Source of the DNA: an uncultured Gemmatimonadota bacterium
GTDB lineage: Bacteria > JAAXHH01
Length of the DNA: 64,000 nt
Direction: 5' to 3'
Assembly (NCBI GenBank): GCA_951812955.1
Contig: OX638340.1
Location: forward strand, 1,888,001 to 1,952,000
Part shown: in pieces, positions 12,050-36,388 of the stretch
How positions within the stretch are numbered: the stretch's first letter is position 1
How the letters are laid out: every line of letters starts with the position of its first letter
Made by a program: the position numbers and the translations under genes
Notes under the pieces: model-generated
What the model saw: only the letters and a program-made list of their open reading frames with translations
What the model was told of the DNA's origin: nothing
The model's database searches: none

Positions 12050-12065
12050 CCGATTCCTTCCGGGT

Positions 12066-15360: not shown

Positions 15361-15396
15361 AAAGGGACAGGTGCAATTCGCCTGTCCCTTTTCTTT
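15361..15396. terminator. bidirectional rho-independent terminator between convergent genes
   Basis: Perfect 11-bp stem AAAGGGACAGG / CCTGTCCCTTT with a 9-nt loop. T-runs follow on both strands. Confidence 0.6.
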
Positions 15397-16453
15397 ACCA
15401 GTTTTCAGGATTCAAGCCGACGCGGATTCCCGCTTCTTCGATCTGCCGCCAGGTGGTATCGTCGATGCTGATCCCTTCACGGCGCCGTTCCTCCGCCAGC
15501 CTGAATTCCGGTTCTCCCGGAACGAGAATCTCTTCGAATCCCGGCGCGGTCCGGCTGGATTTCACGTGCCGGATCAATCCCTCGATCTCCTGGTAGTACC
15601 AGTCCAGGTCCGAGAAGAACGAAATATCGAAGACGGTGAAGAGCACGCCGTTGCTTTCCACGATCTGTTCGCCCTGCGCGCAACCCTGTCCGCTCAGCGC
15701 ACCGCCCAGGACCTCCACCATCAAACCCAGGCTGTAACCCTTATGGGCGACGATTCCGCCCATGGGCAGGATGGCGCCGTTGGGGGGCGGTCCCTTGATG
15801 ACCGTGGGATCCGTGGTGGAGTTGCCTTCGTGGTCGATCAACCATCCTTCCGGAACCCGCACCCCCTTGTTCGCGGCGACCCGGACCTTCCCTTCGGCGA
15901 CGACGGAGGTAGTCAGGTCCACCATGATGGGATCGGCGTCTCGACGGGGCGCCGAAAAGGCGATTGGGTTGGTGCTGATTCGTCCGTCGATACCGCCAAA
16001 AGGCGGAATCTGGCGTCCGAAGCGGCCCGCGTTGACGAAGGCCAGCCCGATCAGACCTTCCCGGGCCGCCATGAGGGGATAGGCGCCTACGCGGCCCACG
16101 TGGCTCGTACGCCGGAGCGTAACCGTGGCCGTGCCGTGCTTACGTGCTTTCTTCATGGCGAGCCGCATGGCGATGGTGCCGCCAACCTGGCCGAGGGCGC
16201 CGCCGTTGTCCACCAGGGCCGTGCAGGGACTTTCTCTCACGATGCCCACGTCGGCCCGGGCCTTGAATCGTCCCTCGTCCATAATGGCCTTGACGTACTC
16301 CGGTATCCGAATGGCGCCGTGGGAATCATGGCCGAAGAGATTCGAGTCCACGAGGTGGTCCACGACGCTGCGGGCATCGTCCTCGGTACAGCCGGCCGCT
16401 TCCAGCACCTCGCAACCGATGCGATGGAGTTTATCGGGGGTAATTACGGGCAT
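15395..16453 (-). CDS. Ldh_2 family (malate/L-lactate/sulfolactate/ureidoglycolate dehydrogenase-like) NAD(P)H oxidoreductase
   Basis: 352 aa. Global match to the Ldh_2 fold (HDSHG, GGxxAxHKG motifs). Confidence 0.8.
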   Translation of the reverse strand: MPVITPDKLHRIGCEVLEAAGCTEDDARSVVDHLVDSNLFGHDSHGAIRIPEYVKAIMDEGRFKARADVGIVRESPCTALVDNGGALGQVGGTIAMRLAMKKARKHGTATVTLRRTSHVGRVGAYPLMAAREGLIGLAFVNAGRFGRQIPPFGGIDGRISTNPIAFSAPRRDADPIMVDLTTSVVAEGKVRVAANKGVRVPEGWLIDHEGNSTTDPTVIKGPPPNGAILPMGGIVAHKGYSLGLMVEVLGGALSGQGCAQGEQIVESNGVLFTVFDISFFSDLDWYYQEIEGLIRHVKSSRTAPGFEEILVPGEPEFRLAEERRREGISIDDTTWRQIEEAGIRVGLNPENW

Positions 16454-16535
16454 TGTCTTCCTTTCCAGGTCTTACGTGTGTACCGACTCTTCAAACGCGC
16501 GATCTGCAACCCGCGGGCGAATGAAACCGGTCGGG

Positions 16536-17570
16536 TCAGGTTCTGTATTTCTCCAGTTTCTTCTGTAATCCCGGCCGTTCGAGCACAGCCCTGTTCACCA
16601 CGTAGGGCGGCTCTTCGCCCCTGGAGACGGCCAGGGCCGCCTTGACGCAGTCGTGGCCGATATCACGAAACAGCTCATGGGTCCAGCACGACGCGTGGGG
16701 CGCCAGGATGACATTCGGGAGCGTGAGCAGCTCATCATCGGGATCGGGCGGCTCCCGTTCGAAGACATCGATGGCCGCGCCCTTGATCCAACCGTCCCGC
16801 AGGGCCCGGGTCAGCGCTTCCTGGTCGACGATCGCGCCACGGGCCGTGTTGACCAGGAAGGCGTCCTCCCTCATGAGGCGCAGTTCCCGCGCGCCGATCA
16901 GGTGCCGGGTGTGTTCGTTCAACGGGCAGTGGATGGTCACGAACGTGCTGCGCCGCAACAGGGTCTCACGGTCCACCAGTACAACGCCCAGTTGCGCGGC
17001 CTCTTCCGCGGACACCGCCGGATCGCTGATGAGGACTTCGGACGGCTCGAAGGGCGCCAGCATGCGCACCACCTCGCGGCCGATCATGCCCATGCCAATC
17101 AGGCCGACCACGCGGCCGCGGATCTCGCATCCCATGTGATCGAACCGGACACCCCAGTCGTCATTCCGTACGATGGCGTCCTTAATCGTCACCCGGTGGC
17201 AGAGTCCGAGCATCAGGGCCATCGTGGCGCTGGCCACGGGCCTCCGGGTGGCCTCCGGAGTGATGGTAATCATGACGTCCGCGTCTGTCGCCGCAGCGAG
17301 ATCGATCATGTCGTAGCCCACGCCGGTTCGCGCGATGAGCGCCAGGCGTTCGACGCCCGCGAAGCTTTCACGCGTGTAGGCCTGTCCCATGGATACGACC
17401 ACGTCGAAGTCTGAAAGCTGATCCGGGGTGACGGGACTCCGGTCTTCGGCAAGGTACGCGTGAGAGACTCCGGCCTTGTCCAGCAGGTCGACTCCGAAAT
17501 CGTCGAACACGACCCCGCCGTCTGGACCCAGCAGGTCGGCGACCAGGGCTACGCGGAATTCATCGGTCAT
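16536..17570 (-). CDS. D-isomer-specific 2-hydroxyacid dehydrogenase (NAD-binding)
   Basis: 344 aa. GLIGMGMIGREV Rossmann motif. Catalytic R/E/H pattern of D-2-HADH. Confidence 0.85.
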   Translation of the reverse strand: MTDEFRVALVADLLGPDGGVVFDDFGVDLLDKAGVSHAYLAEDRSPVTPDQLSDFDVVVSMGQAYTRESFAGVERLALIARTGVGYDMIDLAAATDADVMITITPEATRRPVASATMALMLGLCHRVTIKDAIVRNDDWGVRFDHMGCEIRGRVVGLIGMGMIGREVVRMLAPFEPSEVLISDPAVSAEEAAQLGVVLVDRETLLRRSTFVTIHCPLNEHTRHLIGARELRLMREDAFLVNTARGAIVDQEALTRALRDGWIKGAAIDVFEREPPDPDDELLTLPNVILAPHASCWTHELFRDIGHDCVKAALAVSRGEEPPYVVNRAVLERPGLQKKLEKYRT

Positions 17571-17598: not shown

Positions 17599-19656
17599 TC
17601 AGAACAGGATCTGGGACGTCGACTTGGCGATCAAGACCAGGGAGACGGCCGCCATGCCGATCAGCCCAAGGCCGCACCCGTACCCGGCGAGGATCACCGG
17701 CGCGTAGGCGCGCCATCGTTTCTCTCCGTAGCGCCGTCCGAAATAGAACCTTCCCAGCATGGCGCCGATGAACGTGGGCAGCGTGTAGTGAATCCACGCG
17801 CCCGTGCCCAGTCCGGCCACCAGGCCGTAGAAAAGCAGCGGCGGCGCTTTGAGCAGGCTCAGCACCCCGTACAGCGCGAACGTGAACCCCATTCCGGCGC
17901 CGATATACTCCCAGCGGATCAGTTGCCCGATCACGTCTGAGCCGCCCGGCAGGGTAGACTTGATCCAGATCGTCTCCATCGTGGCCTGCAGCGGCCACAT
18001 CTTCTCGACGAAAGGATAGGCCGCGGACGGTATGGGCGCCAGTTTCCAGATCAGGGCGTAGAACACGAAACTGAATACGATAAGCAGTATCAGGCTCAAT
18101 ATATAGAGTTTGACCAGGCTTGGAAATCGCGTTCGGGTGAGTTCCAGCTGCCGGAAAGTCGCCACGACGCCGCTGTGATCGAAGAGGGGAACCGGGGCGA
18201 ACCAGATCGCCACCCCCTTGTAGCCCGACAGGTAGAAGGACCCCTCTCTGGCGTAGGGGAAGGATGACCCGTAGGGAGAGCCCGTCAAACCTATCATGCG
18301 GGCGCCGATGTAGGAGAAAAAAGGCGTCCACAGAAACCCGAACACCACGGAGATCCACACGGGAAACGCCGGTTCAAGGTAGTAGACCAGGGCAATAAAG
18401 CACAGGGTCGAAACCACCCAGAGCGCGATGGGGATGGGCAGCCTGAAATCACCCCTTTCCGGCGGCGGTTTGCGGGGGCCCTGCCCGCCGGACGCCCCAT
18501 CCGGGTCTCTCCTCAACGCGCGGGCGAAGGCGACCAGGCCGATCAGGCCGATGACCAGCGAAGTGCCGATGGAAGAAAAACTCAGCCAGAAGTCGATGGT
18601 GTTGTTGATGGAGGTGGGTATGGTGCTCATCCCCGGCGTCCAACTGTGCAACAGGCCGAAGTGGTAGAGGAGCGGATTGGCAATAAAGGTGATGACGAAG
18701 GAACTGATGAAGGTGCCGACCACGATCCAGAAGGGCAGGACGAATCCCACCAGGAGGGTGGCCATGTCCGTTCCGATGCCGATGGGCGACGCGGGCAGCA
18801 CGTCCCGGAACCGCGGCGTGAAGTCCGCGAAGGGAATGGGGAAGACCTCCACACCCTTGGTCAGCACCACGCCGGAAATGGTGGGGACGACGACATATAA
18901 TATGCCCCAGCCCAGTCCGATCATGGCGCCGACGGTGAACATTCGCCATCGCCAGGTCTCTTCCCCCGCCGACGATTCGGCCAGGGCGGTAGCGCCGGCC
19001 GCCTGCACGGGCGCCAGGGGGAAGGGCAGGCGTTCGGTGTCGGCCGTAATCCGGAAGAGCACGTATCCCAGGGAGAGCGCGTTGACCAGGCCGAGGATGG
19101 ACACGAGGACGGCCAGGAGAATGGGCTCCAGCCACTCCATGGAGAAGAGGGTCCGGGTGATCAACGAATCGGCACCCCGGGGCGGGGAAACCCACTGTGG
19201 AAGAAGCTGGGCCAGGCCGTCCGCCTGGGGAGACTGGATCAGGTACTGGAACCAGATCATCTTGGCGAAGGGCGCGCCGTGCACCGACGACCCGGCCGCC
19301 ATACCGCTGGCGCCCAGTCCCGTGGCCGCAAGCCCGGCGGCAAGCCAGTAGAGGATGATGGCTTCCTGAGGCTTGAGCTTTATAAACAGGCGCTTGCCGA
19401 TCTCGATGAACATGATGATGGTGACCCATTCCGCGGCGCCCGCGAAACTCTTGCCCGTCACCAGTTCCAGGTAGATCGCGCCGGGGAGCATGACCAGCCC
19501 CACGAAGAAGGCGGCCCAGATGATGCGGCTGCTGAACCCGTCCTCGTAGGGCAGGTTGTCCGGAACGATCTGCCACCGGTCATCCTGTTCGGCTCCGGTG
19601 GGAATCGCTTCCCGATCCCGCTGTTCGTGCTGCTCGCGTCTGTTTTCGTCGCTCAT
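17599..19656 (-). CDS. polytopic integral membrane protein, uncharacterised family (paralog 1 of 3)
   Basis: 685 aa, at least 14 predicted TM helices. Shares ERLPFPLAP and aromatic-rich loop motifs with ORFs 25513-27615 and 34391-36388. Confidence 0.7.
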   Translation of the reverse strand: MSDENRREQHEQRDREAIPTGAEQDDRWQIVPDNLPYEDGFSSRIIWAAFFVGLVMLPGAIYLELVTGKSFAGAAEWVTIIMFIEIGKRLFIKLKPQEAIILYWLAAGLAATGLGASGMAAGSSVHGAPFAKMIWFQYLIQSPQADGLAQLLPQWVSPPRGADSLITRTLFSMEWLEPILLAVLVSILGLVNALSLGYVLFRITADTERLPFPLAPVQAAGATALAESSAGEETWRWRMFTVGAMIGLGWGILYVVVPTISGVVLTKGVEVFPIPFADFTPRFRDVLPASPIGIGTDMATLLVGFVLPFWIVVGTFISSFVITFIANPLLYHFGLLHSWTPGMSTIPTSINNTIDFWLSFSSIGTSLVIGLIGLVAFARALRRDPDGASGGQGPRKPPPERGDFRLPIPIALWVVSTLCFIALVYYLEPAFPVWISVVFGFLWTPFFSYIGARMIGLTGSPYGSSFPYAREGSFYLSGYKGVAIWFAPVPLFDHSGVVATFRQLELTRTRFPSLVKLYILSLILLIVFSFVFYALIWKLAPIPSAAYPFVEKMWPLQATMETIWIKSTLPGGSDVIGQLIRWEYIGAGMGFTFALYGVLSLLKAPPLLFYGLVAGLGTGAWIHYTLPTFIGAMLGRFYFGRRYGEKRWRAYAPVILAGYGCGLGLIGMAAVSLVLIAKSTSQILF

Positions 19657-19756: not shown

Positions 19757-20914
19757 CTACTCCGCCCTGATATAGTTGCCCGCCTTGTCCCAGTCCGGCC
19801 GCGTCAGGCCGTTCAGGTCCCATACCACCTGTCCGGCGCGCACGGTCAGCAGGCATCGCAGCCGCCGGTCGCCGCGCATGCGGGCGAGGCCCGAATCGAC
19901 GAAGCCGAATTCCCCGTATTCCAGTTCCAGCACGGCGACGTCCGCCTCCGCGCCGATGCTCAGGGTACCCAGTTCCGGCCGCCGTATGGTCCGGGCGGGA
20001 TTGCGCGTGGAGCGCATGACCACGTCCTCCAGGGTCATCCCCATGTTCAGGCATTTCGACATGGTCGTGATCATGCTCGCGTTCGGCATAAGGGCACTGT
20101 ACTTGTGGAAATCCGTGCTGACCGTATCCGGCAGGAAGCCCTGCTCGATGGCCGGCACGGCGATGCGGAACCAGAAGCTGCCGCCGCCGTGGCCCAGATC
20201 GAACAGGATGCCCTTGTCCCGCGCCTCCCGGACGTAGTCGTTCACCCTGCCGCGATGGTCCAGCAAGGGGATGTGCTGTGCGTACAGGTGGGTGTGTATG
20301 TCGCCCGGACTCAGTTTCTTCAGCAGCAGGTCCCGGTAGCTGCGGTTCGGCTTCGGTGCGAAATCGATCATGGCAATGGCGCCGCTCCGCCGGGCCGCCT
20401 CGACGGCGCCGTCGACCGCCTCCCACCCCGGTCCGTTGAAATGGGCGGTCTTGGATCCCACGACGTGTTCCGGATACCTGCTGATCATGTCCGCGCAGGG
20501 CACGGGGTCCATCTCCGACACGTCCTGTTCCACGGCGCCTTCCATACCGGCGCCCACGATGTTGATCAGGGCCAGCACCCGGGTTATGGACTCGGCGATG
20601 ACCGTGTCCTTGAAGTCTTCGAATTTCTTCCACCCGGCGCCCCCTGTATCGAGCACCGTGGTCACGCCGTTGGGGAGCACGTGGGCATCGGGGAACACCC
20701 ATCCCCGGTAGCCGCCATAGGCGTGCATGTGGATGTCGATCAGGCCAGGCGTGACGTAATGGCCGTGGACGCGGGCGACCTGTCTCCCGTGCTCCGCCGG
20801 GATGTCGTGTCCAACCGCCGCAATCAGTCCGTCGTTGACGGCGACGTCCCGGCTATCGTTGATGCCGTTTTGGGGATCGATGACCTGTCCGCCCTTGATT
20901 ATGAGATCGTACAT
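19757..20914 (-). CDS. amidohydrolase-family metallohydrolase (dihydroorotase/deacetylase-like)
   Basis: 385 aa. GLIDIHMHAYGG N-terminal HxH metal motif. TIM-barrel amidohydrolase pattern. Confidence 0.8.
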   Translation of the reverse strand: MYDLIIKGGQVIDPQNGINDSRDVAVNDGLIAAVGHDIPAEHGRQVARVHGHYVTPGLIDIHMHAYGGYRGWVFPDAHVLPNGVTTVLDTGGAGWKKFEDFKDTVIAESITRVLALINIVGAGMEGAVEQDVSEMDPVPCADMISRYPEHVVGSKTAHFNGPGWEAVDGAVEAARRSGAIAMIDFAPKPNRSYRDLLLKKLSPGDIHTHLYAQHIPLLDHRGRVNDYVREARDKGILFDLGHGGGSFWFRIAVPAIEQGFLPDTVSTDFHKYSALMPNASMITTMSKCLNMGMTLEDVVMRSTRNPARTIRRPELGTLSIGAEADVAVLELEYGEFGFVDSGLARMRGDRRLRCLLTVRAGQVVWDLNGLTRPDWDKAGNYIRAE

Positions 20915-20924
20915 CGCTGCTCCT

Positions 20925-23900
20925 TCAGGTCAATTGCGGCGCTTCCGCGGGCGCTCGTTCCTCGACTTTCCGGTACTGGTCCTTGATGGACTCGGAAAGG
21001 GTACGCCACACGAGGAAACGTTTCCGCAGCACGGTGAAGAACCGGCGGTTGATGGTCTGCCACTGCGCAAGGTCCCCGCTGCGCCGGCGGATTGCGATCA
21101 TGATCCGGTACAGGCTTTCACCCGGTACGGGCTCCAGTTCCAGCGCCACGTCCTGGCTGATGGCGAGATCGTAGGGCGCGAGCCATACCGTCGCAGATAC
21201 ACGGTAGCCTTCTATAGGCCGGGCCGGTACCACGTCATGCGCCGTTCCCTCCGCGACGAAATCCTCGGCCGAACTGTCCTCGTGGGTCTGGAAAATGTGT
21301 GCCAGGTATCCCGCCAGCGGATAGGCCTCCGGGATGGTGACGGTAAAGGGAAACTCGAAGCGCCAGTCGTCGCCGTCGGGCGTTGGTGGCGCCCAGCGCC
21401 GGGTCACGTCCTCCACCGTCATGTCCGCGGCCTTTTTGGCCGGGTAGAGGGTGGACAGGAACACGACGACCATGACGACCACCGTCGCGTATACGGTCGA
21501 CAACGAGGAATAGTTCAGCGACAGGCCGCCCAGCAGGTCCCACTGCGACAGGCCCATGGTGATGATCTGGCCGGTGAGGTACCCGAACACAGCGCCTAGG
21601 GTGGCGAATACGGCCGCTTCGGCGATGAACAGCGCGGCAACGTGGTTCGGCGCCAGGCCCACGGCGCTGTATACGCCGATCTCCCGGAACCGTTCGAACA
21701 CGGCGCCCATCATGGTGTTCAGAACCAGGAACGCCGCGATGAGCACCGGGATGATCAGGTTGGCCAGGCCCGAGACCGAAGTGGCGCCAAGGGAGCTGTA
21801 GACCTTCACCTCGTCTTCCGTTCCGACAAACACGGCCAGGAGGACCCGTGACATGAAGGCCTCCACGGAATCGCGGAGTTGATCGCCATCCGCGAACCCC
21901 GTGATCGCCACGGACCGCGTGGATCCGTTCAGGTCGAGGGTCTGGCGGTAGGGCAGGACCAGCACGTTGCGGGATGGCAGGTGTTCGGAGGCCTGGATCG
22001 TTGACATGAATACCTCCACGTCCATTTCGGTCAACGAACGGGTCATGGAAAAACTGGCGGGCATGATGCTTTCGTCGTCCATGTCCCGGTAGGCGTCCAG
22101 GCCATCGGATTCGAGCAGTCCGATCACGGTATAGCGGCCGCCCAGGATCTCCACGACCGCCGTACCTACGTCCTCGGGCTCCACGTCCAGCCTTTCGGCC
22201 AGTTCCGTGGGCAGCAGACACACCGCCCTTTCGTCAGGACCGAACCATCGCCCGCCCGGTACCAGGTAGCGGTCCAGCCCGGAAATGGCCGGTTCGTCGG
22301 CGTGAAGTCCGAGCAGGGACTGTACCGTGGTGGAGGTTCCCCGGCCCGGCGCCCGCAGGTCTATGTAGGGGCTGGTGAGATCCTCGGGCTCGTACCACGA
22401 CCTGGGCACGACCTCGGCCTGCGCTTTGAAGGCGTTTTCCACGTAGGGCAGGAAAGAAGAGGGCAGCGAGTGCCACGACAGGTTGCGCATGAGGACGCCG
22501 TCGTACGGGGGGGCGTTCTCGCGGTCCAGCGTATAGAACTGGATGCCGGTCCTGAAGGAGGTGAAGGAAAGCACGGTAAAGGTCAGCAGGGTCAGCGTCA
22601 CCGCCGTCAGAGCCGTGCGCAGCTTCCGCTTGCGAAGGTTCGAAATCCCGAGCGATATGGCCACCGCCGTGGCGCTCAGCCGGCCGATGTCCGCCTCGTG
22701 AAGGCCGGCCGCCGACCGGGTCAGGTTCTTCATCTCCGTGTCGAACCGCGTGACGATCATGGTAATGATAATCAGCGCCATGGCCAGGATGATGAAGGCG
22801 AGGAAAACCATGTAGGGCGTCAGGCTGAGTTGAAAGGCCGGATGCACGTTCTGCAGCAACAAAAAGACCGCCGCGAAGATCACGCCCACCGCGAGCAGCC
22901 GCTTGCGAATGTCCGGGAACCCGAAGAACAGTCGCTCGAGGAAGAAGCAGAAGGGTACCAGCAGCATGAAGTAGAAAACGATGCCGTCCACCGTGTCGTC
23001 CGCGGCGTACCGTACATCGGGATAGGCGCGGGCCTCGTAGCCCCACGCTTCCCTCGACCGGGCCACGAAGGCATCGTAGCGGCGGTCTTCCAGGGCTTCC
23101 CGCGCCGCCCGAAGCGCCTGCGTGCTTTCTTCATGCAACTCGGCTGCCCGGGCGTTCGTCACGCCGTGGTCCTCCAGTTTCATCAGCCGCGCCCTGTTGA
23201 GCGACCACAGGTCCAGGGCGCTCTGGTAGAAGGGATAGAGAATCGGCCCCCGGTCCGCCGTGAAGCCTTGTCCCTGTGCCAGGGCCATGACGTCGTCGGA
23301 GATGCTTTCCGGCGGATCGTCGAGCCAGGACTCCGGCGTATTGGTCAGCAGGTACTTGACGCCCCGGGGACCCGCGCTCATGAACATCTTGACGCGGTCC
23401 TCGGGCTTTGCGAAGACCACCGCGGCGTTGGTCATCCAGTTGCCGAAGAAACTCTGGTCTTCCACGAAGGCCGCCCCGTACTTTCGCAGTGGGCTGTTGT
23501 CCCGTCCGAGCACGGTCAGGTTGTCGAGAGCGACGAAGACGCCGGGATCGACGATATCGAAGAGGTTGATCTCCTCGCACGGAAAGAGGACCTGTATGGT
23601 ATTGTTCACCTTGGACGAATTCGGCACCGCGAGAGGGAAGGTGGCGTCGCCCTCCTCCCCCAGGTCCGGCGCGTACACGACCCTGCCTGTGTCGTCCAGG
23701 CCATAGCTGCGAACCTCGGTCGGGCCCTTGGAGTCGCGGACCATGGAAAAACGGAAGTAACCCATCGAATCCGCGTGGGTGACCATGAACCCCCGCACGC
23801 CGCTGTGGCTCTGGTAGCCCGGCTCGTAGACGACCAGGGCATCGGATACCGGGGTGTTGGGCTTGAAGAAATCCACGGTGCGGTCGAACTCGAGGACCCG

Positions 23901-25511
23901 GCCCTCGATGTCGCGGCCGTCGTCTTTCAGCCGAATGGACTCGTCCACGTCGAAGGCCTCGGGGTCCGACAGCATGGCCGGCAGCAAGGTGCCGATGGTC
24001 CTGATCTGCCGGACCAGGTTGGGGAAATCGACGTGCTCGACCCGGTCGACAGGCGTATCGATCAGCAGCCTGTTGTCGTTCACCGTGGAGAAGGTCATGC
24101 CATGCAGCCCCGCGAGCGTGACCATCTCATGATCGAAGGCTGGACCCGCGGGCATGTAGCTTTCCTGGGACCTGAGCGAAGGCGTCAGCGTATTGAGGTA
24201 GGCCGTCCGGCTGTCCTCCCGATCGTACACGCCGGCCTTGCGTGCGTAATTCATGTACCGGTCCGCATAGGGTTCGTACAGTATATCCAGATTCGAGGCG
24301 AAGAAGATGTAATCGCCGTAGCTGAACAGCCCGACCTGGTCCATCCGGCTGGTCAGGTCCAGACCCAGGAAAAGCGTGAAGGGGATCCGGTCCGCCTCAG
24401 GTATGCGTTCCAGGAAAAAATCGTCCGTCCGATAGTGGCGGTCCAAGAAGTCGTTTATGCCCTGCATGCCGTGGAAATGGGCGGACGTGGCCAGAAACAG
24501 CACGGTGTATCCGGGAGGATGGGCGCGGAACACGTCCAGCAGTTCCAGCATCGCCGCGATGCCGCCCGCGCTCTCGGCGCCCGGGGCCTGTCCGGGTACG
24601 ACCGACATGGCGTCATAGAATGCCGACAACACGACGACGCGGTCCTTCCACTTTTCTGTCCCGTCGCCGCCGGGAATCGGTTCGTCCCGACCCTGTATCC
24701 ACCCCATGACGTTCCAGGTTTCAGCCCGTTCCCACGACATGCGACCCCGGATCGTCACGTCGATGTTGCCGGGTCCTTCGGACCGGGCGGCCTGCAGCAC
24801 CTTCGCCGCGTGGGGATCGGGAATCCAGAACCGCGGGACGTCTGCGGGCACGTCCAGGATCTTGCGCTGGGCCTGGTTGTTGGTCACCGCGCCCGGACCG
24901 CTGTCGTAGAACAGGATAGCCTGCGCGCCCAGCATCCGCGCGTTGAGATACTGGTCTCGCCCGTCGAAATCGATCAGGACGATGCTTCCCTCGATCTCTT
25001 TCCCGTTGAAGGCCTGGAATTCGCCCCGGCGTCCATAGTGCAGTGGGCCTTTGATGCCGTTGGGAAAGGAATTCAGCCGGACCAGATTGGGCCAGAACTG
25101 GTACACCGGGATTTCGGTTTCAACTGAATCGTGCAGGGTAAGCGTGAACCCGTGGTCGACCGGCGAGGAAACGGTGAAGGTATCGATGGTTACTTCGGAC
25201 AGTCCCCCTGCATGGAACGCGTCGACCACGTACTCCATGGCCGCGCGGTTCCCCGGGTAGCCCACGACGCGCGACGGATGTGCGCTCATCGACCGGACGT
25301 GGGCCTCGACGCCCTCCACGGTCACGATTTCGGAGACTTCTTCCCAGGTCACTGGAGCTTCTTCGAGGGGCCTGGGAGTCACGTCATCGGGAAGCGAGAC
25401 GAACCTCAGGATCACGTGCTCCGTGACCCAGGCCGGACCGGCCACGGCCACGGCGAGGAAGAGCAGGACGCCCACGACAAGAAAGAAAGTTCCGAAAATC
25501 CGAGAATACAC
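20925..25511 (-). CDS. giant membrane protein: N-terminal TM anchor + PA domain + M28-like (apparently non-catalytic) domain + two FtsX/MacB-like permease units
   Basis: 1528 aa. PA-like SIVLIDFDGRDQYLNARMLGAQAILFY. M28-like block with SAFYDA / GAESAGG / SAHFHG where catalytic H, D, EE are substituted. TM cluster at ~880-960. LRKRKLRTALTAVTLTL TM plus periplasmic domain. C-terminal FtsX 4-TM with FERFREIGVYSAVGLAPN. Confidence 0.75.
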   Translation of the reverse strand: MYSRIFGTFFLVVGVLLFLAVAVAGPAWVTEHVILRFVSLPDDVTPRPLEEAPVTWEEVSEIVTVEGVEAHVRSMSAHPSRVVGYPGNRAAMEYVVDAFHAGGLSEVTIDTFTVSSPVDHGFTLTLHDSVETEIPVYQFWPNLVRLNSFPNGIKGPLHYGRRGEFQAFNGKEIEGSIVLIDFDGRDQYLNARMLGAQAILFYDSGPGAVTNNQAQRKILDVPADVPRFWIPDPHAAKVLQAARSEGPGNIDVTIRGRMSWERAETWNVMGWIQGRDEPIPGGDGTEKWKDRVVVLSAFYDAMSVVPGQAPGAESAGGIAAMLELLDVFRAHPPGYTVLFLATSAHFHGMQGINDFLDRHYRTDDFFLERIPEADRIPFTLFLGLDLTSRMDQVGLFSYGDYIFFASNLDILYEPYADRYMNYARKAGVYDREDSRTAYLNTLTPSLRSQESYMPAGPAFDHEMVTLAGLHGMTFSTVNDNRLLIDTPVDRVEHVDFPNLVRQIRTIGTLLPAMLSDPEAFDVDESIRLKDDGRDIEGRVLEFDRTVDFFKPNTPVSDALVVYEPGYQSHSGVRGFMVTHADSMGYFRFSMVRDSKGPTEVRSYGLDDTGRVVYAPDLGEEGDATFPLAVPNSSKVNNTIQVLFPCEEINLFDIVDPGVFVALDNLTVLGRDNSPLRKYGAAFVEDQSFFGNWMTNAAVVFAKPEDRVKMFMSAGPRGVKYLLTNTPESWLDDPPESISDDVMALAQGQGFTADRGPILYPFYQSALDLWSLNRARLMKLEDHGVTNARAAELHEESTQALRAAREALEDRRYDAFVARSREAWGYEARAYPDVRYAADDTVDGIVFYFMLLVPFCFFLERLFFGFPDIRKRLLAVGVIFAAVFLLLQNVHPAFQLSLTPYMVFLAFIILAMALIIITMIVTRFDTEMKNLTRSAAGLHEADIGRLSATAVAISLGISNLRKRKLRTALTAVTLTLLTFTVLSFTSFRTGIQFYTLDRENAPPYDGVLMRNLSWHSLPSSFLPYVENAFKAQAEVVPRSWYEPEDLTSPYIDLRAPGRGTSTTVQSLLGLHADEPAISGLDRYLVPGGRWFGPDERAVCLLPTELAERLDVEPEDVGTAVVEILGGRYTVIGLLESDGLDAYRDMDDESIMPASFSMTRSLTEMDVEVFMSTIQASEHLPSRNVLVLPYRQTLDLNGSTRSVAITGFADGDQLRDSVEAFMSRVLLAVFVGTEDEVKVYSSLGATSVSGLANLIIPVLIAAFLVLNTMMGAVFERFREIGVYSAVGLAPNHVAALFIAEAAVFATLGAVFGYLTGQIITMGLSQWDLLGGLSLNYSSLSTVYATVVVMVVVFLSTLYPAKKAADMTVEDVTRRWAPPTPDGDDWRFEFPFTVTIPEAYPLAGYLAHIFQTHEDSSAEDFVAEGTAHDVVPARPIEGYRVSATVWLAPYDLAISQDVALELEPVPGESLYRIMIAIRRRSGDLAQWQTINRRFFTVLRKRFLVWRTLSESIKDQYRKVEERAPAEAPQLT

Positions 25512-25512
25512 G

Positions 25513-27507
25513 TCAGTCTATCCCGTAGATATGATGCCCCGCGTGGGGGAACCATATGTAATCAACGAACATGGAGATGACCACGCCGGTAGCCACACCG
25601 AAGATAAGGCCCAGGAAGAAGGGCTGACCCTTTCGGTACAGCTCGATACCGCCGACCCACATCATGATGCTCTTGATGACCCAGCAAACGAACATGGACG
25701 ACACGATAGCGCGTGCGGGCCACGAGTAGGAAAGGAAGAAACCGAGGGGATGCAGCGGCCAGCCGGGCAGCCGGGCCCTCAGGGTCATGAGCAGGAACAT
25801 GAGCCAGCCGCCCACCATGAAGAACATGAGGCGGGCCGTGTCCGGTCCGAAGGGATCCCGCATCTTGGTGAGCGTTTCGTTGTAGGGGATGGTCGATCCG
25901 ATCCTTCCGAACCACCATCCGTTGGTGAACTGCCGCGTGCCCTGGTCGAATCCCAGGTAGATCGTCCAGATCAGCGCGATCACCACGCCGATCACCGCGG
26001 CGGACAGGACTGTCCAGCCCAGTCCACGGTGCCAGCGCGCACCGATCTCTGAAAGCTTGGCCACCTGCATGAAGGCGGGCATGAAGGTCGATTTGATCTC
26101 GCTGACGGGTCCATAGGTCTGGGCCATCGCCGTCATGGTGGACATGGACAGGTTCGCCGACCCGACCGAGTAGAATACGAGCACCTGGGCGATCATGGGC
26201 GAACGCACGTAGGGCAGCCCGGCTTCGGCGATGATGCGGGAGACGCCGATATAGATGACGAAGACGCCCGCGAGGAGGAACACGGCAATGGGCACGCTCA
26301 TGCCCAGCTGGTTCAGCCACACGATCCCGTAGACGAACCCGCCGAGAAAGCCGAAGACGGCGACCCGGTAGGGCAGCATCTCATCGGAGTCGTCCAGGTC
26401 CGATCTGCGGCCGAACGCATGGGAGAACACCGCGCGGATGTGAAACCTGGCCCGCCACAGCCCCCAGGCTACGAACACGATGAAGGCGCCCATGTTCTGC
26501 CAGTCCAGCATGGGGTGGATTGACGTGTAGTTGTCCCTGCCAGGTATGTCGTAACCGATCCGTTGTGCGATGCCTACCTGGATGATCCCGATCATGTAGA
26601 ACACCCAGAACCCGGCCAGCACGTCCAGGTTGACGAAGTAGGAAATACCGAGGATGGCTGGCCGGAAGTTGATCTCCAGCGGAGGGAATCCTTCGCCGAA
26701 GACAATGGGCGGCGCCGACCCGAAATAGGGAAACTGGGGCACGACCGGTGTGAAGTATCCGATAATGTTGTACATCATCACGCAGAAAGGGATGGAAAAG
26801 CCGATCCAGAAACGTTTCTCGGTCATAAATTCCGGGATGCGTCCCGACGATTCCATGCCTCGCGTCAAGGCGAGGGGGATCTGCATCATGGGGAATACCA
26901 GTTTCTCGTGTTCGACCCACTGTCTTCTGAGGATCACCACGAGACACAGCCCCATGAAGATGATCGGTACGATGAAGGTCAGCCACCAGAACAGGGGAAT
27001 GCCCCACACGCTCCAGGGTATGGACTCACCGGGCGGGATACCGTCGACGAACCAGGTCAGCGCATTGCCCTGGTTGGTGACGTTCGCCCAGGGTTTCAAA
27101 TAGGGATAAAAGTATTCTGCCCACTGGTTCTCGGGCGTCGCCAGGAGATTCGGCGCCATGAGCGTGGAGATAAACGGGGCGCCCATGCCGTTGGTCGACA
27201 GCCCGGAAGCCGCCATGCCCATGGCCAGGGGGATGACGAACTCGTGGGACGTCAGGGCCCAGTCTTTCTTCCACCGGGCCAGTATCACGTTGAACAGGAT
27301 GAGATACGCAAAGGCCAGGAACAACGCACCGATGTGAAGATGGTCCGCGCCGAGTTGAGACGAGGCCATGGTGTACTGAAAATAGGGGACGATCAGGGAA
27401 ATCAGGACGACGCTCGTCAGGCCCAGGAGGATGGATCTCGGCGTAATGATCCGGGTCGCGGTCGTCGGGCCGGCGGAAGAGGATACACTTTGCTGGGCTG
27501 AGGCCAT
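25513..27507 (-). CDS. polytopic integral membrane protein, uncharacterised family (paralog 2 of 3)
   Basis: Start taken at MASAQQ (ORF extends to 27615). Stop is 1 nt from the start of the giant gene. C-terminal YRKGQPFFLGLIFG...DYIWFPHAGH matches paralog 3. Confidence 0.7.
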   Translation of the reverse strand: MASAQQSVSSSAGPTTATRIITPRSILLGLTSVVLISLIVPYFQYTMASSQLGADHLHIGALFLAFAYLILFNVILARWKKDWALTSHEFVIPLAMGMAASGLSTNGMGAPFISTLMAPNLLATPENQWAEYFYPYLKPWANVTNQGNALTWFVDGIPPGESIPWSVWGIPLFWWLTFIVPIIFMGLCLVVILRRQWVEHEKLVFPMMQIPLALTRGMESSGRIPEFMTEKRFWIGFSIPFCVMMYNIIGYFTPVVPQFPYFGSAPPIVFGEGFPPLEINFRPAILGISYFVNLDVLAGFWVFYMIGIIQVGIAQRIGYDIPGRDNYTSIHPMLDWQNMGAFIVFVAWGLWRARFHIRAVFSHAFGRRSDLDDSDEMLPYRVAVFGFLGGFVYGIVWLNQLGMSVPIAVFLLAGVFVIYIGVSRIIAEAGLPYVRSPMIAQVLVFYSVGSANLSMSTMTAMAQTYGPVSEIKSTFMPAFMQVAKLSEIGARWHRGLGWTVLSAAVIGVVIALIWTIYLGFDQGTRQFTNGWWFGRIGSTIPYNETLTKMRDPFGPDTARLMFFMVGGWLMFLLMTLRARLPGWPLHPLGFFLSYSWPARAIVSSMFVCWVIKSIMMWVGGIELYRKGQPFFLGLIFGVATGVVISMFVDYIWFPHAGHHIYGID

Positions 27508-27729
27508 GGAAAGGGCCGGATTGTGATACTTGCGGTGACTGAAATACGGTAATGAATCTAGTCTGCGGGTCCAGAATATGTAAAATGGCAGACGGTATAA
27601 GTCAAAGAAAAACAAAGTTCCATGAGGTCCTGAGCCACCATCGGCCAGACCTTTTCGTTGTTGACACGATTCCGGTTTGCGGGGATATTTCCATACCTTG
27701 ATGTACCCGTTTCATACGAGGGATTTACA

Positions 27730-30270: not shown

Positions 30271-30323
30271 GACCGACTTCTACAGCCCTGCCGTTCGGAA
30301 ATGAGTCGAACAAGGCCGGTTAC

Positions 30324-32680: not shown

Positions 32681-32723
32681 TGGATCGAGCGGGACGGTAC
32701 ATACGGAAGTAGAGGCGAATCCC

Positions 32724-34369: not shown

Positions 34370-34390
34370 CTAAAGCTCCTTTTCTTTTCG

Positions 34391-36388
34391 TTACCATGTT
34401 TCCACGATGTGGCCCGAATTCGGAAACCAGATTACATCGACGCAGTAGGAAAGCGCCACGCCCAGCACGTAACCCACCAACATGCCGATGAAGAAGGGCT
34501 GCGTCTCCCGGTACAATCTCGTGCCCCCCAGTTTAAGGATAATGGCCTTAACGAGCCAGACCAGGAAGATCGACGTGGCGATCATACCGATTCCCCAGGT
34601 CTTGGCAACAGCCCAGCCGATGGGATGCAGCGGCCACCAGTGGAAATTGTGGTGGGCCAGGATCAGCAGCCAGGCTATGAAGGCGCCGACCCCCAGGCCC
34701 AGGTACTCCCCGCCGGTCAACTGGGTCTGGTTATTGATCCATGTCGTCAGCGTGTTGTAACCCGCCTTCGCGTTTCCGAATGCGTCCCTGAACCCATCCG
34801 CGCCCGTGGTTTCGTAACCCAGGAAGACAGTATATACTACGGAAATGATGGCGGCCATGACCAGCGCCGAGACGATGACGGGGAAGATGCCGCGCCGGGC
34901 GCCGCCAATCTCGTCGCCCATCTTGTTTACGTGGGCCATGGCGCACATGCCCAGCGTACGCCAGTTCCGTGAGAATGTCTGCGACAGGGTCAGGATGGTG
35001 AGATCCGCGCGGTGCAGGTTCGCCGATCCGAAGGAGAACACCGTAAAGTCATGGGCGTTATATGGCAGGTCGAGATTAATCAGGCCCGCTTCCGCGACCA
35101 CGCGGGTGACCCCAAGAAAGAGGAGCATGCAGGTGGCCAGCAGCGTGGCCGCGGCGGCGAAGGACATGCCCATGCTGATCAGGAAGAAGAACATGTACGT
35201 GATGCCGAGTACCACGCCGCACATGGCGGTCCTGTAGGAGAAAAACTCCCCCGAATCGTCGATGTCGTTTCCCCTTCCGATGGCCTTACGCACCACGTCG
35301 TAGAGGTGGCGCCGGGCCATCCAGAGCCCGAACAGGGTGAACATGAAAAACCCGCCCAGGTGCTGGGCCGTGACGATCTCGGTCGTCTTCGGAATGCCGA
35401 ATCGACTCATGATGCCGATCTGGATCGTGGCCAGCAGGAAGAACACCCAGATGCTGAACAGGATGTTGAGATTCGTAAAGAATCCGATGCCGATGAAGGC
35501 GAAATTGATCTTGAACTGGATCGGCGGGAAGGATTCGGCCAGGGTGATCGGTATGCGGTAATCCCCGCCCAGTCTGATGGGCACCACAGCGTCCCAGTAC
35601 GAGACGATGTTCCAGAGAATGATGAAGAGGGGGATGGAGAATCCGTACCAGAAAACCCTGGACCGGGCGATCCGGGGCAGTACGGAGCCGCTTTGGTCAT
35701 CTTCGATGAGCAACAGGGGCACGCGGGCCAGCGGAAAGGTCAGACGTTCCCGCTCGATCCACTGTTTACGCAGGATCACCATGAGCGACGCGCTGGCGAA
35801 GAAAAGGGCCAGAAAGAAGGTGCCCCACCAACTCATGGGGATGATCCAGTCCCGCCAGGGAATGACGCCGGTGGAGGGCAGCCCCTCGTAGAACCAGTGC
35901 ACCGCCCGCCGTTCATCCGGGATGATGAGCCAGGTCGGGAGATACTCGAAAAACAATTCGACATACCTGTTCTCGGAGTTGGCATAGTAGTGCGGAATGG
36001 ATGGAACGGCGACCCAGTAGGTCGTAAATGCCCATCCGGGAATAGCCGAGGCCGTAAACACGATGAAAAAGATTATCATCAGTTCAGGAGCTGTGAATAT
36101 TCGAGTCGGTGCGAATCGCTTCAACAGGCCGTTTACGACGAAGACGACCAGCATGAAGGGGAAGAGCGCCGCCATGGGCATGTGGGTAATGGACAGGTAG
36201 GATGAATGAGCCTCGAAGGCGGAATGCACGACCCACCACGCCATGGCCGCGGACAGGAAGAGTCCCAGACCCACGGCACGAAGGGTCATGCCCGAAGCAA
36301 GCCCACCGGTTCTGCCGGGAGGACCTACATCGGGAGGATAGGAATCCGGCCTGCCTGCAGACGGGGGAGTCCGCTCTTTAACACTCAT
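34391..36388 (-). CDS. polytopic integral membrane protein, uncharacterised family (paralog 3 of 3)
   Basis: 665 aa. Colinear with paralog 2 (RKQWIERERLTFPLARVP; YRETQPFFIGMLVG...DVIWFPNSGH). Confidence 0.7.
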   Translation of the reverse strand: MSVKERTPPSAGRPDSYPPDVGPPGRTGGLASGMTLRAVGLGLFLSAAMAWWVVHSAFEAHSSYLSITHMPMAALFPFMLVVFVVNGLLKRFAPTRIFTAPELMIIFFIVFTASAIPGWAFTTYWVAVPSIPHYYANSENRYVELFFEYLPTWLIIPDERRAVHWFYEGLPSTGVIPWRDWIIPMSWWGTFFLALFFASASLMVILRKQWIERERLTFPLARVPLLLIEDDQSGSVLPRIARSRVFWYGFSIPLFIILWNIVSYWDAVVPIRLGGDYRIPITLAESFPPIQFKINFAFIGIGFFTNLNILFSIWVFFLLATIQIGIMSRFGIPKTTEIVTAQHLGGFFMFTLFGLWMARRHLYDVVRKAIGRGNDIDDSGEFFSYRTAMCGVVLGITYMFFFLISMGMSFAAAATLLATCMLLFLGVTRVVAEAGLINLDLPYNAHDFTVFSFGSANLHRADLTILTLSQTFSRNWRTLGMCAMAHVNKMGDEIGGARRGIFPVIVSALVMAAIISVVYTVFLGYETTGADGFRDAFGNAKAGYNTLTTWINNQTQLTGGEYLGLGVGAFIAWLLILAHHNFHWWPLHPIGWAVAKTWGIGMIATSIFLVWLVKAIILKLGGTRLYRETQPFFIGMLVGYVLGVALSYCVDVIWFPNSGHIVETW

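What the first reader, a model, noticed from the sequence alone, without database searches (positions are those of the whole stretch)
20925..25511. 1528-aa fusion of a PA/M28-like pseudo-peptidase ectodomain with two FtsX/MacB-type permease units, with no ATPase in cis
The protein has an N-terminal TM anchor and an ~850-aa extracytoplasmic region. That region holds a PA domain and an M28-fold block in which the canonical zinc ligands and catalytic residues appear substituted: HxD becomes FYDA, GAxDxxSG becomes GAESAGG, and EE becomes AH. This resembles transferrin-receptor-type non-catalytic M28 domains. A 3-TM bundle follows, then a second TM, a MacB-like periplasmic domain and a canonical FtsX 4-TM with the RxREIG motif, plus a ~190-aa cytoplasmic tail. 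FtsX/MacB permeases normally need a cognate ABC ATPase for mechanotransmission, and none is encoded in the surrounding 12-kb operon. A FtsX unit with a huge pseudo-protease ectodomain suggests an uncharacterised extracytoplasmic sensing or processing machine.
Basis: partly seen in the sequence, partly recalled or inferred. Interest (0 to 1): 0.75.

Follow-up and report, generated by a model that had tools for sequence, protein, structure and literature searches.

The report
Giant peptidase-like FtsX protein with OPT-like partners
The 1528-residue gene is real and belongs to a widespread, unstudied family in which a periplasmic peptidase-like domain with an altered metal site is joined to one MacB/FtsX-type membrane module; it is always encoded beside, and sometimes fused to, distant relatives of oligopeptide (OPT) transporters, and never beside the ATPase such modules normally use.

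Summary
The ORF at 20925..25511 (-) is genuine. Collinear homologues of about 1500-1900 aa occur in Gemmatimonadota, Latescibacterota, Zixibacteria and related phyla, with at least 597 matches in species-representative genomes, so it is not a chimera.

Sequence searches and AlphaFold models confirm the layout:
- an N-terminal TM;
- a PA-inserted M28-fold ectodomain;
- a beta-rich domain and a helical stalk;
- a 3-TM bundle;
- one complete MacB/LolC-type unit (elbow helix, TM, MacB periplasmic domain, three TMs with ERFREIG);
- a folded cytoplasmic tail of about 170 aa that has no P-loop.

A second FtsX unit is not supported.

No family member keeps the canonical M28 metal set. The site is instead replaced by an invariant D300/E313/H345/D385/D485 cluster, so it looks remodelled rather than decayed.

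No ABC ATPase lies in the 64-kb window, and none lies within 3 kb of 69 related genes. The constant neighbours are DUF6785/DUF6784 proteins and a second family without a Pfam model. These two families are distant paralogues, and the second scores as divergent OPT. One Latescibacterota lineage fuses the giant protein to DUF6785/6784.

Best reading: a receptor/processing and transducer subunit of an OPT-like peptide-uptake complex. The energy source is unresolved.

The parts
20925..25511 (-). Whole ORF, 1528 aa, GTG start one base after the stop of the upstream DUF6785 gene.
   Evidence: Full-length collinear homologues are found.
25431..25499 (-). TM1 (residues 5-27), a signal-anchor. It could instead be a cleavable signal peptide, because AVA-G follows it.
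   Evidence: Hydropathy; AF2 helix 2-24. Whether it is cleaved was not tested.
23967..25346 (-). PA-inserted M28-fold domain (residues ~56-515). The PA insertion spans about residues 120-262 (24726-25154).
   Evidence: - Pfam.
- Profile against PDB: 2ek8 at E 5e-17 and YwaD at 1e-10.
- Foldseek: 2ek8, BSAP, PaAP, GCPII and TfR at E 1e-23 to 1e-19.
- The model has pLDDT 89.
24057..24620 (-). Remodelled metal site: F298, D300, E313, H345, F346, D385 and D485, with T486, P487 and D489 alongside.
   Evidence: - Alignments to 2ek8, YwaD, AAP and Nicalin.
- Conservation in 97 homologues.
- D385 as the equivalent of AAP D179 is inferred from motif order and predicted strands.
23337..23924 (-). Beta-rich periplasmic domain or domains (residues ~530-725) with no family assignment.
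   Evidence: AF2 secondary structure, pLDDT mostly 85-96. No Pfam hit.
22989..23297 (-). Helical periplasmic region and stalk (residues ~739-841). Its last helix (812-862) runs straight into TM2.
22746..22988 (-). 3-TM bundle (residues 842-922). Together with TM1 it has an FtsX-like topology, but no detectable FtsX homology.
   Evidence: hhalign probability is below 1%.
22554..22694 (-). Cytoplasmic amphipathic 'elbow' helix (ISNLRKRKLRT) and TM5, which is TM1 of the MacB-type unit.
21777..22553 (-). MacB-type periplasmic core domain (residues 987-1245).
21441..21776 (-). FtsX TM2-4 (residues 1246-1357), including the coupling-helix motif ERFREIG at 21675-21695.
   Evidence: - Pfam FtsX: 51 bits.
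- PDB sequence hits: YtrF, MacB, LolC/E/F.
- The motif is invariant across homologues.
20928..21440 (-). Conserved cytoplasmic C-terminal alpha+beta domain (residues 1358-1528). It is probably helix-grip-like and is not a nucleotide-binding domain.
   Evidence: - AF2 secondary structure reads beta-alpha-beta4-alpha.
- No P-loop is present.
25513..27510 (-). Partner A: a DUF6785+DUF6784 polytopic membrane protein. Its stop is 1 nt before the giant gene's start. The probable ATG is at 27510; the mechanical ORF starts at 27615.
   Evidence: - Pfam: 369 and 78 bits.
- Neighbourhood conservation.
- Natural fusion P0409.
17599..19656 (-). Partner B: a 685-aa polytopic membrane protein with no Pfam hit of its own. 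It is a divergent OPT-superfamily member and a distant paralogue of DUF6785.
   Evidence: - It is 54%, 48% and 42% identical to the genes next to the giant gene in L004, L005 and L006.
- Relatives P0156 and P0162 hit Pfam OPT at 43.5 and 39.7 bits over nearly the full length.
- hhalign against DUF6785 gives 96.3%.
19757..20914 (-). Amidohydrolase/deacetylase-family metallohydrolase (PRK09237-like) between the giant gene and partner B. This placement is specific to this clade.
   Evidence: The same spacing is seen in L007-L015.
15395..17570 (-). Downstream genes on the same strand: a D-2-hydroxyacid dehydrogenase (16536-17570) and an Ldh_2-family dehydrogenase (15395-16453).
34391..36388 (-). 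Second DUF6785/DUF6784 paralogue, 33% identical to partner A, not adjacent to a giant gene.
   Evidence: The same upstream copy is seen in L008-L014.

Best explanation
The protein is the large subunit of a conserved inner-membrane complex whose other subunits are one or two OPT-superfamily-like permeases: DUF6785/DUF6784 and the family without a Pfam model at 17599..19656.

Proposed mechanism (inferred):
- The PA/M28-fold head sits in the periplasm on a helical stalk and binds peptides or peptide-like nutrients. The binding site is the remodelled former metal centre (D300, E313, H345, D385, D485). The head either holds the free amino terminus without cutting or trims it by a non-canonical, at most mono-metal, mechanism.
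- The substrate is passed to the adjacent OPT-like permease for proton-coupled import.
- The MacB/LolC-type unit, with its periplasmic domain, acts as the conformational transducer or gate between head and permease.
- The cytoplasmic helix-grip-like tail links it to the permease, and does so covalently in the natural fusions.
- In this genome the imported product would feed the neighbouring amidohydrolase, dehydrogenases and histidine-utilisation genes.

Shown here: the architecture, the fold assignments, the loss of the canonical M28 ligands, the absence of a cis ATPase, the obligate neighbourhood with the two permease families, and the fusion.

Inferred: the substrate class, the direction of transport, and the hand-over step.

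Unresolved: the energy source. It could be a trans-encoded COG1136 ATPase or none at all.
For: - Real, conserved architecture. One search finds 1125 cluster representatives at 50% identity with E<=1e-30 to residues 931-1528.
- Folds.
- Active-site remodelling with invariant polar residues.
- Partner linkage: of 69 giant genes with at least 3 kb of flank on both sides, 67 have DUF6785 or family B within 3 kb, 69 within 10 kb, 59 on the same strand and 41 within 300 bp.
- Tight gene spacing: gaps or overlaps range from -17 to +18 nt, and the gap is 1 nt in the window.
- Natural giant-DUF6785/6784 fusion of 2120 aa, collinear with this protein over residues 66-1518. It is seen in several independent assemblies, including NCBI MEE2729158.1.
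- Partner B is OPT-like, and DUF6785 is homologous to it.
- OPT proteins are proton-coupled importers of oligopeptides, glutathione and metal chelates (PMC12831333, PMC12687453).
- Local context is catabolism of amino acids and amides.
Against: - No substrate, binding or transport data exist.
- The OPT relationship is distant. Only 2 of 48 family-B members scanned pass HMMER's filters against PF03169, and DUF6785 is linked to OPT only through family B. Import of peptides is therefore an extrapolation.
- Outside this clade the wider gene context is not peptide-related.
- The strictly conserved coupling-helix motif suggests an ATPase partner that this model does not require.
- The related loci are not phylogenetically independent.
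Confidence: 0.45

Rival explanations
1. It is a classical type VII ABC mechanotransmission machine powered by a MacB/LolD-type (COG1136) ATPase encoded elsewhere. ATP-driven movement of the MacB-type unit would switch the M28-like head on an envelope substrate such as peptidoglycan peptide stems or lipoprotein or lipopeptide termini. This would parallel FtsEX with its hydrolase activators, or YbbAP with TesA. The OPT-like proteins would merely recycle the products.
For: - The MacB-type unit is complete, with elbow helix, periplasmic core domain and an invariant ERFREIG...GLAP.H coupling region.
- Mechanotransmission in this fold works through that helix (PMC5985334).
- Type VII systems that control hydrolases are known (PMC12646458, PMC7668044).
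- In L032 and L045 a short FtsX gene and a COG1136-type ATPase (with the ADEPTGNLD motif) lie 4-5 kb downstream on the same strand.
- Several paralogues per genome could share one ATPase.
Against: - No ABC ATPase lies within 3 kb in 0 of 69 loci, and only 1 of 69 has one within 6 kb. None lies in the 64-kb window.
- Among six atypical-length relatives scanned against Pfam, none has an ABC_tran domain.
- The L032/L045 ATPase sits in a PqqD-containing sub-cluster that may be a separate system.
- The conserved, and sometimes covalent, partner is a secondary-transporter-like protein, not an ATPase.
Confidence: 0.25
2. It is a membrane-anchored, catalytically active but non-canonical aminopeptidase. 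The FtsX-type part would be only a degenerate anchor, and the neighbouring permeases would work independently.
For: - H345 is invariant at the position of the general base.
- The best AAP entry matched in PDB is the E151H mutant 2anp. From memory, that mutant keeps low activity.
- Subsets of homologues keep His at position 298 (29 of 97) or gain His at position 346 (24 of 97).
Against: - The window protein has F298 and F346, so neither zinc site keeps a histidine ligand.
- The FtsX unit and the C-terminal domain are as strongly conserved as the head, which does not fit a passive anchor.
- The gene fusions and tight gene spacing argue for a complex.
Confidence: 0.12
3. It is an extracytoplasmic sensor or transceptor. 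Ligand binding to the pseudo-peptidase head would be relayed through the MacB-type unit to the cytoplasmic helix-grip-like domain as a signalling output, comparable to BceAB-type sensing.
For: - The head may be non-catalytic.
- A folded, conserved cytoplasmic domain of unknown role is present.
- BceB-type permeases act in signalling, and BceB appears among the fold hits.
Against: - No kinase, response regulator or transcription factor is conserved near the gene.
- BceAB sensing needs its ATPase.
- The conserved partners look like transporters.
Confidence: 0.08
4. The ORF is a chimera of two genes created by an assembly or frameshift error.
For: None found.
Against: Collinear full-length homologues at 37-98% identity occur in dozens of independent assemblies, including closed long-read chromosomes. 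A confident AF2 helix (812-862) runs continuously from the ectodomain into TM2.
Confidence: 0.01

Closest known systems
Type VII ABC transporter permeases (MacB, LolC/LolE, FtsX, YtrF, HrtB, YbbP)
   Same: - The unit has four TMs, with a Porter/Sabre-type periplasmic domain between TM1 and TM2.
- It has an N-terminal amphipathic helix.
- It has an ER.REIG coupling-helix region between TM2 and TM3.
- Like FtsEX with EnvC, PcsB or RipC, and like YbbAP with TesA, it pairs this fold with a hydrolase-fold module outside the cytoplasm.
   Different: - The hydrolase-fold module is fused in cis, on its own extra four TMs.
- No ATPase gene is adjacent in any of 69 loci.
- A cytoplasmic domain of about 170 aa that is not a nucleotide-binding domain follows TM4.
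- The constant partner, sometimes fused, is an OPT-like secondary-transporter homologue.
PA-domain M28 aminopeptidases (Aneurinibacillus AM-1 aminopeptidase 2ek8, B. subtilis YwaD/BSAP, P. aeruginosa PaAP)
   Same: These are the best fold and profile matches, and they have the same arrangement of a PA domain inserted into the M28 domain.
   Different: - Three of the five metal ligands are replaced (H to F/Y, E to F, H to D).
- One is changed conservatively (D to E).
- The general-base Glu is replaced by an invariant His.
Non-catalytic M28-fold membrane proteins (Nicalin of the ER BOS complex; transferrin receptor; GCPII as the catalytic cousin)
   Same: - Each is a membrane-tethered PA/M28-fold ectodomain that serves as a binding module within a membrane complex.
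- Nicalin is the best PDB sequence match to the M28 core (E 8.5e-9) and shares the YDA motif.
- TfR and GCPII are strong fold matches.
   Different: - Those proteins are eukaryotic and single-pass.
- Here the former active site is not degenerate but carries an invariant polar cluster.
- The anchor is an 8-TM MacB-type module.
ADOP (acidobacterial duplicated orphan permease, TIGR03434)
   Same: It is an FtsX-family permease without an adjacent ATPase. There is a weak NCBIfam hit (E 4.7e-5).
   Different: ADOP proteins carry two recognisable FtsX units and no peptidase-like head. Here only one FtsX unit is detectable, and the score is far below the family cut-off.
OPT oligopeptide transporter family (PF03169), compared with the partner genes
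   Same: Family B relatives match the OPT model nearly end to end at 40-44 bits. The proteins are of similar size and are polytopic.
   Different: Most members, including the window copy, fall below HMMER's filters. DUF6785/6784 is linked to OPT only through family B. No OPT protein is known to work with a MacB-type partner.

Membership tests
Type VII ABC (MacB/FtsX/LolCE) permease | FtsX-type 4-TM domain (PF02687) | tested here: met
Type VII ABC (MacB/FtsX/LolCE) permease | Extracytoplasmic Porter-containing domain between TM1 and TM2 | tested here: met
Type VII ABC (MacB/FtsX/LolCE) permease | Major coupling helix between TM2 and TM3 | tested here: met
   ERFREIGVYSAVGLAPNH lies at 1273-1290, between TM6 and TM7, and is invariant in 36-104 homologues. 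This is sequence-level evidence only.
Type VII ABC (MacB/FtsX/LolCE) permease | Cognate ABC ATPase, fused or encoded alongside | tested here: not met
   - No NBD lies in the 64-kb window.
- No NBD lies within 3 kb in 0 of 69 loci.
- The protein has no P-loop.
- A trans-encoded ATPase could not be tested.
Type VII ABC (MacB/FtsX/LolCE) permease | Dimer of two 4-TM units | not testable with these tools
Catalytic M28 metallopeptidase | M28 fold | tested here: met
   Pfam gives 30.2 bits. Foldseek gives E 6e-23 to 2ek8 and BSAP.
Catalytic M28 metallopeptidase | Five co-catalytic zinc ligands (His, Asp, Glu, Asp, His; AAP H97, D117, E152, D179, H256) | tested here: not met
   The corresponding residues are F298, E313, F346, D385 and D485. 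None of 97 homologues has the canonical set.
Catalytic M28 metallopeptidase | General-base Glu (AAP E151) | tested here: not met
   H345 is invariant in 97 of 97 homologues and aligns with residue 151 of AAP.
Non-catalytic PA/M28 receptors (TfR, Nicalin type) | M28 fold with lost catalytic residues, used as a binding module | tested here: inconclusive
   Loss of the canonical residues is shown. The replacement residues are invariant, however, so catalysis of another kind is not excluded. Binding was not tested.
ADOP / duplicated FtsX permeases | Two FtsX domains in one chain | tested here: not met
   There is a single PF02687 stretch. hhalign of residues 830-935 against 1235-1365 gives a probability below 1%. 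The TIGR03434 score is 21.7 against a cut-off of 622.
OPT superfamily (partner B, 17599..19656) | Match to PF03169 over most of its length | tested here: inconclusive
   The window copy gives no hit. Homologues P0156 and P0162 (47-48% identical to the window copy) hit at 43.5 and 39.7 bits over 176-646, against profile positions 134-618 of 623. NCBI names relatives 'peptide transporter'.
DUF6785/DUF6784 (partner A, 25513..27510) | Matches to PF20581 and PF20580 | tested here: met
   Scores are 369 and 78.5 bits.

The most novel reading that the evidence does not exclude
A MacB/FtsX-fold mechanotransmission module has dispensed with an ABC ATPase altogether. It is instead coupled to an OPT-superfamily secondary transporter, and is covalently joined to it in some lineages. 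The complex would be a membrane-tethered receptor or gate for a proton-driven importer, or a transducer driven by the permease's own conformational cycle. Either case would be a use of the type VII ABC fold without an ABC.
Probability: 0.3. Interest if true: 0.85.

Novelty: new variant of a known kind. Interest (0 to 1): 0.68.

Why it matters
Type VII ABC permeases are understood as ATP-driven mechanotransmitters whose ATPase is fused or encoded alongside. Here a large family, with more than 1100 cluster representatives at 50% identity across several poorly studied phyla, keeps the permease fold and the coupling motif but is never encoded with an ATPase. It is instead locked to OPT-like permeases.

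- If the coupling is real, it defines a new kind of receptor-assisted secondary transporter, or an ATPase-free use of the MacB fold.
- It assigns a first functional context to DUF6785/DUF6784, which I found in no paper.
- It cautions metagenomic surveys that count these genes as M28 'extracellular peptidases', as in studies of marine Gemmatimonadota (PMC11316326).
- The natural single-chain fusion of 2120 aa is a ready target for cryo-EM.

Tried and rejected
1. Second FtsX unit. hhalign of TM1 and of the 3-TM bundle against the canonical unit found nothing. The idea is rejected at sequence level, and a fold-level test was not possible because model coordinates are not exposed.

2. Cis ATPase. 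A Walker A and LSGGQ scan of all six frames, and phmmer with two NBD queries, found none in the window. In related loci the only NBDs within 10 kb fall into two groups. One is a polar-amino-acid ABC importer about 8 kb away in one clade. The other is the L032/L045 sub-cluster.

3. PDB sequence relatives of the partners. None was found, even at E<=10 with profiles of 4, 7 and 38 sequences.

4. Literature. No paper mentions DUF6785 or DUF6784, and none describes an M28-FtsX fusion.

5. Other conserved neighbours. All-against-all clustering of flanking ORFs found only clade-specific genes.

6. NBD fusions among distant relatives. None was found in six atypical-length proteins scanned. The scan instead revealed the DUF6785 fusion.

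7. Assembly chimera. Rejected.

Full report
**Observation**

The ORF at 20925..25511 on the minus strand exists and encodes 1528 residues from a GTG start. That start lies one base after the stop of the upstream gene.

Pfam finds four domains:

| Domain | Residues | Score |
|---|---|---|
| PA | 168-213 | 21.9 bits, just under the cut-off |
| Peptidase_M28 | 287-502 | 30.2 bits |
| MacB_PCD | 966-1159 | 28.0 bits |
| FtsX | 1255-1364 | 51.3 bits |

Hydropathy gives eight TMs, at 5-27, 842-862, 870-890, 900-922, 966-986, 1246-1268, 1291-1312 and 1335-1357. This topology places residues 28-840 and 987-1245 outside the cytoplasm, and the last 171 residues inside it.

**The gene is not a chimera**

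- A search of 5.8 billion proteins returned 360 relatives. The 120 listed are 37-98% identical, and most are collinear over at least 95% of the query. They come from Gemmatimonadota, Latescibacterota, Zixibacteria and Planctomycetota bins.
- A scan of species-representative genomes found at least 597 matches, including several in closed chromosomes, often with two or more paralogues per genome.
- An exhaustive search with residues 931-1528 found 1125 cluster representatives at 50% identity with E<=1e-30.
- The window itself is 98% identical to a Gemmatimonadota bin (L016).

**Anatomy**

Two AlphaFold2 models were built on alignments of 97 and 104 homologues. Both are confident:
- residues 1-960 have pLDDT 89.4 and pTM 0.84;
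- residues 855-1528 have pLDDT 85.

N-terminal part:
- It matches PA-containing M28 aminopeptidases (2ek8, BSAP/YwaD, PaAP) at Foldseek E about 1e-22. It then matches GCPII, NAALADase L and transferrin receptor.
- A profile of the family hits 2ek8 at E 5e-17 over residues 56-350. The PA domain is therefore inserted in the M28 domain, as in those enzymes.
- After the M28 domain come a beta-rich region (about 530-725) and a helical region. The last helix of that region (812-862) runs continuously into TM2.

C-terminal part:
- The unit has the amphipathic helix before its first TM (…ISNLRKRKLRT…).
- It has the ERFREIG…GLAPNH segment between its second and third TMs, where type VII ABC permeases carry the major coupling helix (PMC5985334). 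That segment is invariant across the family.
- The tail has no P-loop.

Only one FtsX unit is detectable. TM1 plus the ectodomain plus the 3-TM bundle has the same topology as an FtsX unit. However, Pfam sees a single FtsX stretch, and a profile-profile comparison of the 3-TM bundle with the canonical TM2-4 gives a probability below 1%.

**The peptidase-like site**

HMM alignments to 2ek8, YwaD, the Aeromonas aminopeptidase (AAP) and Nicalin place residues as follows.

| AAP position | Role in AAP | This protein | State in 97 homologues |
|---|---|---|---|
| H97 | metal ligand | F298 | Y 51, H 29, F 17 |
| D99 | | D300 | invariant |
| D117 | bridging ligand | E313, at or next to it (one-residue deletion in the loop) | E in 94 of 97 |
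| E151 | general base | H345 | invariant |
| E152 | metal ligand | F346 | F 70, H 24 |
| D179 | metal ligand | D385 (inferred from motif order and predicted strands) | D in 96 of 97 |
| H256 | metal ligand | D485 | invariant |

The AAP residue numbers are from memory of the 1AMP sequence.

- No member of the family has the canonical set, so this is not a canonical co-catalytic zinc peptidase.
- The site has not drifted as it has in transferrin receptor. It has been replaced by a fixed cluster of carboxylates and one histidine.
- This fits a working site. It could be a binding pocket for a charged group such as a peptide amino terminus, or a mono-metal catalytic centre.
- The best AAP entry matched in PDB is the E151H mutant (2anp).
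- The best sequence match to the M28 core overall is Nicalin, a non-catalytic M28-fold membrane protein (E 8.5e-9).

**Surroundings in the window**

The gene lies in a minus-strand string, listed here in transcription order:
- DUF6785+DUF6784 protein, 25513..27510;
- the giant gene;
- a PRK09237-type amidohydrolase, 19757..20914;
- a 685-aa polytopic protein without a Pfam hit, 17599..19656;
- a D-2-hydroxyacid dehydrogenase and an Ldh_2 dehydrogenase;
- an RraA-like gene and a histidine-utilisation set, hutU, hutH and hutI-like, plus another amidohydrolase.

Another DUF6785/6784 paralogue lies at 34391..36388.

No ABC nucleotide-binding domain exists anywhere in the 64 kb. This holds for the motif scan and for phmmer with two different NBD queries at E<=10.

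**Conserved partners**

I called ORFs in 86 related loci. I searched them with HMMs of the giant protein, of DUF6785 (family A) and of the 685-aa protein (family B), and with an ABC NBD query by phmmer. The table covers the 69 giant genes that have at least 3 kb of flank on both sides.

| Feature | Count out of 69 |
|---|---|
| Family A or B within 3 kb | 67 |
| Family A or B within 10 kb | 69 |
| Family A or B within 3 kb on the same strand | 59 |
| Family A or B within 300 bp | 41 |
| ABC NBD within 3 kb | 0 |
| ABC NBD within 6 kb | 1 |

- Of the two exceptions for the 3-kb criterion, L001 has transposase genes between the pair. The intervening genes in the other, L026, were not examined.
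- In annotated contigs the spacing between the genes ranges from an overlap of 17 nt to a gap of 18 nt, with one larger gap of 126 nt in L002.
- Family B members next to the giant gene in L004, L005 and L006 are 54%, 48% and 42% identical to the window copy.
- Families A and B are distant paralogues. hhalign gives 96.3% probability and E 1.8e-9 over 450 columns (a smaller test is).
- Family B is a divergent OPT-superfamily member. NCBI calls relatives 'peptide transporter'. Two relatives 47-48% identical to the window copy match Pfam OPT at 43.5 and 39.7 bits, over residues 176-646 against model positions 134-618 of 623. Most members do not pass HMMER's prefilters.
- Neither family has a sequence relative in PDB.
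- No paper mentions DUF6785 or DUF6784.

**A natural fusion**

Among distant relatives, P0409 (2120 aa) is collinear with the window protein over residues 66-1518 at 36% identity. It then continues directly into DUF6785 and DUF6784.

Its 90% cluster holds several 2120-aa members from different sources and contigs. It also holds NCBI entries of 2083 aa and of 1552 aa (partial), both named 'DUF6785 family protein'. A second cluster, P0491, shows the same join. The join is therefore unlikely to be a single sequencing error, and it argues that the two proteins act in one complex.

**Mechanism**

The best-supported reading is a periplasm-facing capture or processing head, a MacB-fold transducer, and OPT-like permeases that do the translocation. 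The likely cargo is peptides or peptide-like nutrients.

- OPT proteins are proton-coupled importers (PMC12831333, PMC12687453).
- The local context here is amino-acid and amide catabolism.

Shown: the architecture, the folds, the remodelled site, the missing cis ATPase, the partner linkage and the fusion.

Inferred: the substrate class, the direction of transport and the hand-over step.

The energy question is open.
- The invariant coupling-helix motif argues for an ATPase in trans.
- In L032 and L045 a short FtsX gene and a COG1136-type ATPase lie 4-5 kb downstream, within a sub-cluster that also holds a PqqD-like gene. This may be a separate system.
- Against an ATPase are its consistent absence, the non-NBD cytoplasmic domain directly after the last TM, and the covalent link to a secondary-transporter homologue.

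I put about 0.45 on the uptake-complex model whatever the energy source. I put 0.25 on a classical trans-ATPase machine acting on an envelope substrate. Smaller weights go to an independent non-canonical peptidase and to a sensor. The chimera idea is refuted.

**Comparison with known systems and novelty**

The protein works most like type VII ABC systems that pair the MacB fold with an extracytoplasmic hydrolase-fold partner, such as FtsEX with EnvC, PcsB or RipC, and YbbAP with TesA (PMC7668044, PMC12646458). As a family member it meets the fold, periplasmic-domain and coupling-helix criteria, but it fails the cis-ATPase criterion.

It is a homologue of M28 peptidases but fails their catalytic criteria. 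It is not an ADOP-type duplicated permease.

I rate it a new variant of a known kind. About 0.3 probability remains that it is an ATPase-free use of the MacB fold coupled to a secondary transporter, which would be categorically new.

**Limits**

- The related loci are not phylogenetically independent.
- The partners could not be modelled.
- Genome-wide ATPase counts could not be made.

Noticed in passing
P0409 (2120 aa) and its cluster; P0491: These are natural single-chain fusions of the giant protein to DUF6785+DUF6784 in a Latescibacterota lineage. They are present in several independent assemblies, including NCBI MEE2729158.1.
   Followed up: partly
L045:17394-20329 and L032:7999-11110 (partly also L006, L033): Downstream of the giant gene and its family-B partner lies a sub-cluster. 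It contains an unknown protein of about 350 aa, a PqqD-like protein, a short FtsX permease of 228 aa and a COG1136-type ABC ATPase (ADEPTGNLD motif). It could be a dedicated motor or an unrelated RiPP-like export cluster.
   Followed up: partly
window 7816-14448 (-): Histidine-utilisation genes (hutH 10460-12049, hutU 12066-13715, hutI-like 9060-10343), another amidohydrolase (7816-9063) and an RraA-like gene (13774-14448) lie on the same strand downstream of the operon.
   Followed up: partly
window 27658-33845 (+): An MMPL-family transporter is transcribed divergently from the operon. It is followed by bacillithiol biosynthesis genes: BshC, a PIG-L deacetylase (BshB-like) and a GT4 glycosyltransferase (BshA-like).
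   Followed up: no
window 33923-36388 (-): A second DUF6785/DUF6784 paralogue, 33% identical to the first, has a rhodanese-domain gene just downstream and no giant gene beside it. The same extra copy appears in close relatives L008-L014.
   Followed up: partly
window 50155-54143 (-): Two tandem aldehyde:ferredoxin oxidoreductase (AFOR) genes of 629 and 690 aa.
   Followed up: no
window 38734-42506 (+): Two DUF4097 'toastrack' proteins lie close together. A CBM9/DUF5916 protein of 854 aa lies at 43879-46443.
   Followed up: no
P0361, P0363, P0364 (2769-3053 aa): Much longer relatives carry the same C-terminal FtsX unit and tail. P0361 carries extra N-terminal extracytoplasmic modules, including a Big_5 Ig-like domain, ahead of the M28-like part; the other two were not scanned.
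   Followed up: partly
window 25431-25499 (-), residues 5-27: The N-terminal hydrophobic segment is followed by AVA-G, a possible signal-peptidase site. The first 'TM' might therefore be cleaved rather than act as an anchor.
   Followed up: no
window, all six frames: No strict Walker A motif (G..G.GK[ST]) occurs anywhere in the 64 kb.
   Followed up: no
window 62001-64000: G+C falls to 0.50, against 0.54-0.65 (mostly 0.57-0.65) in the rest of the window.
   Followed up: no
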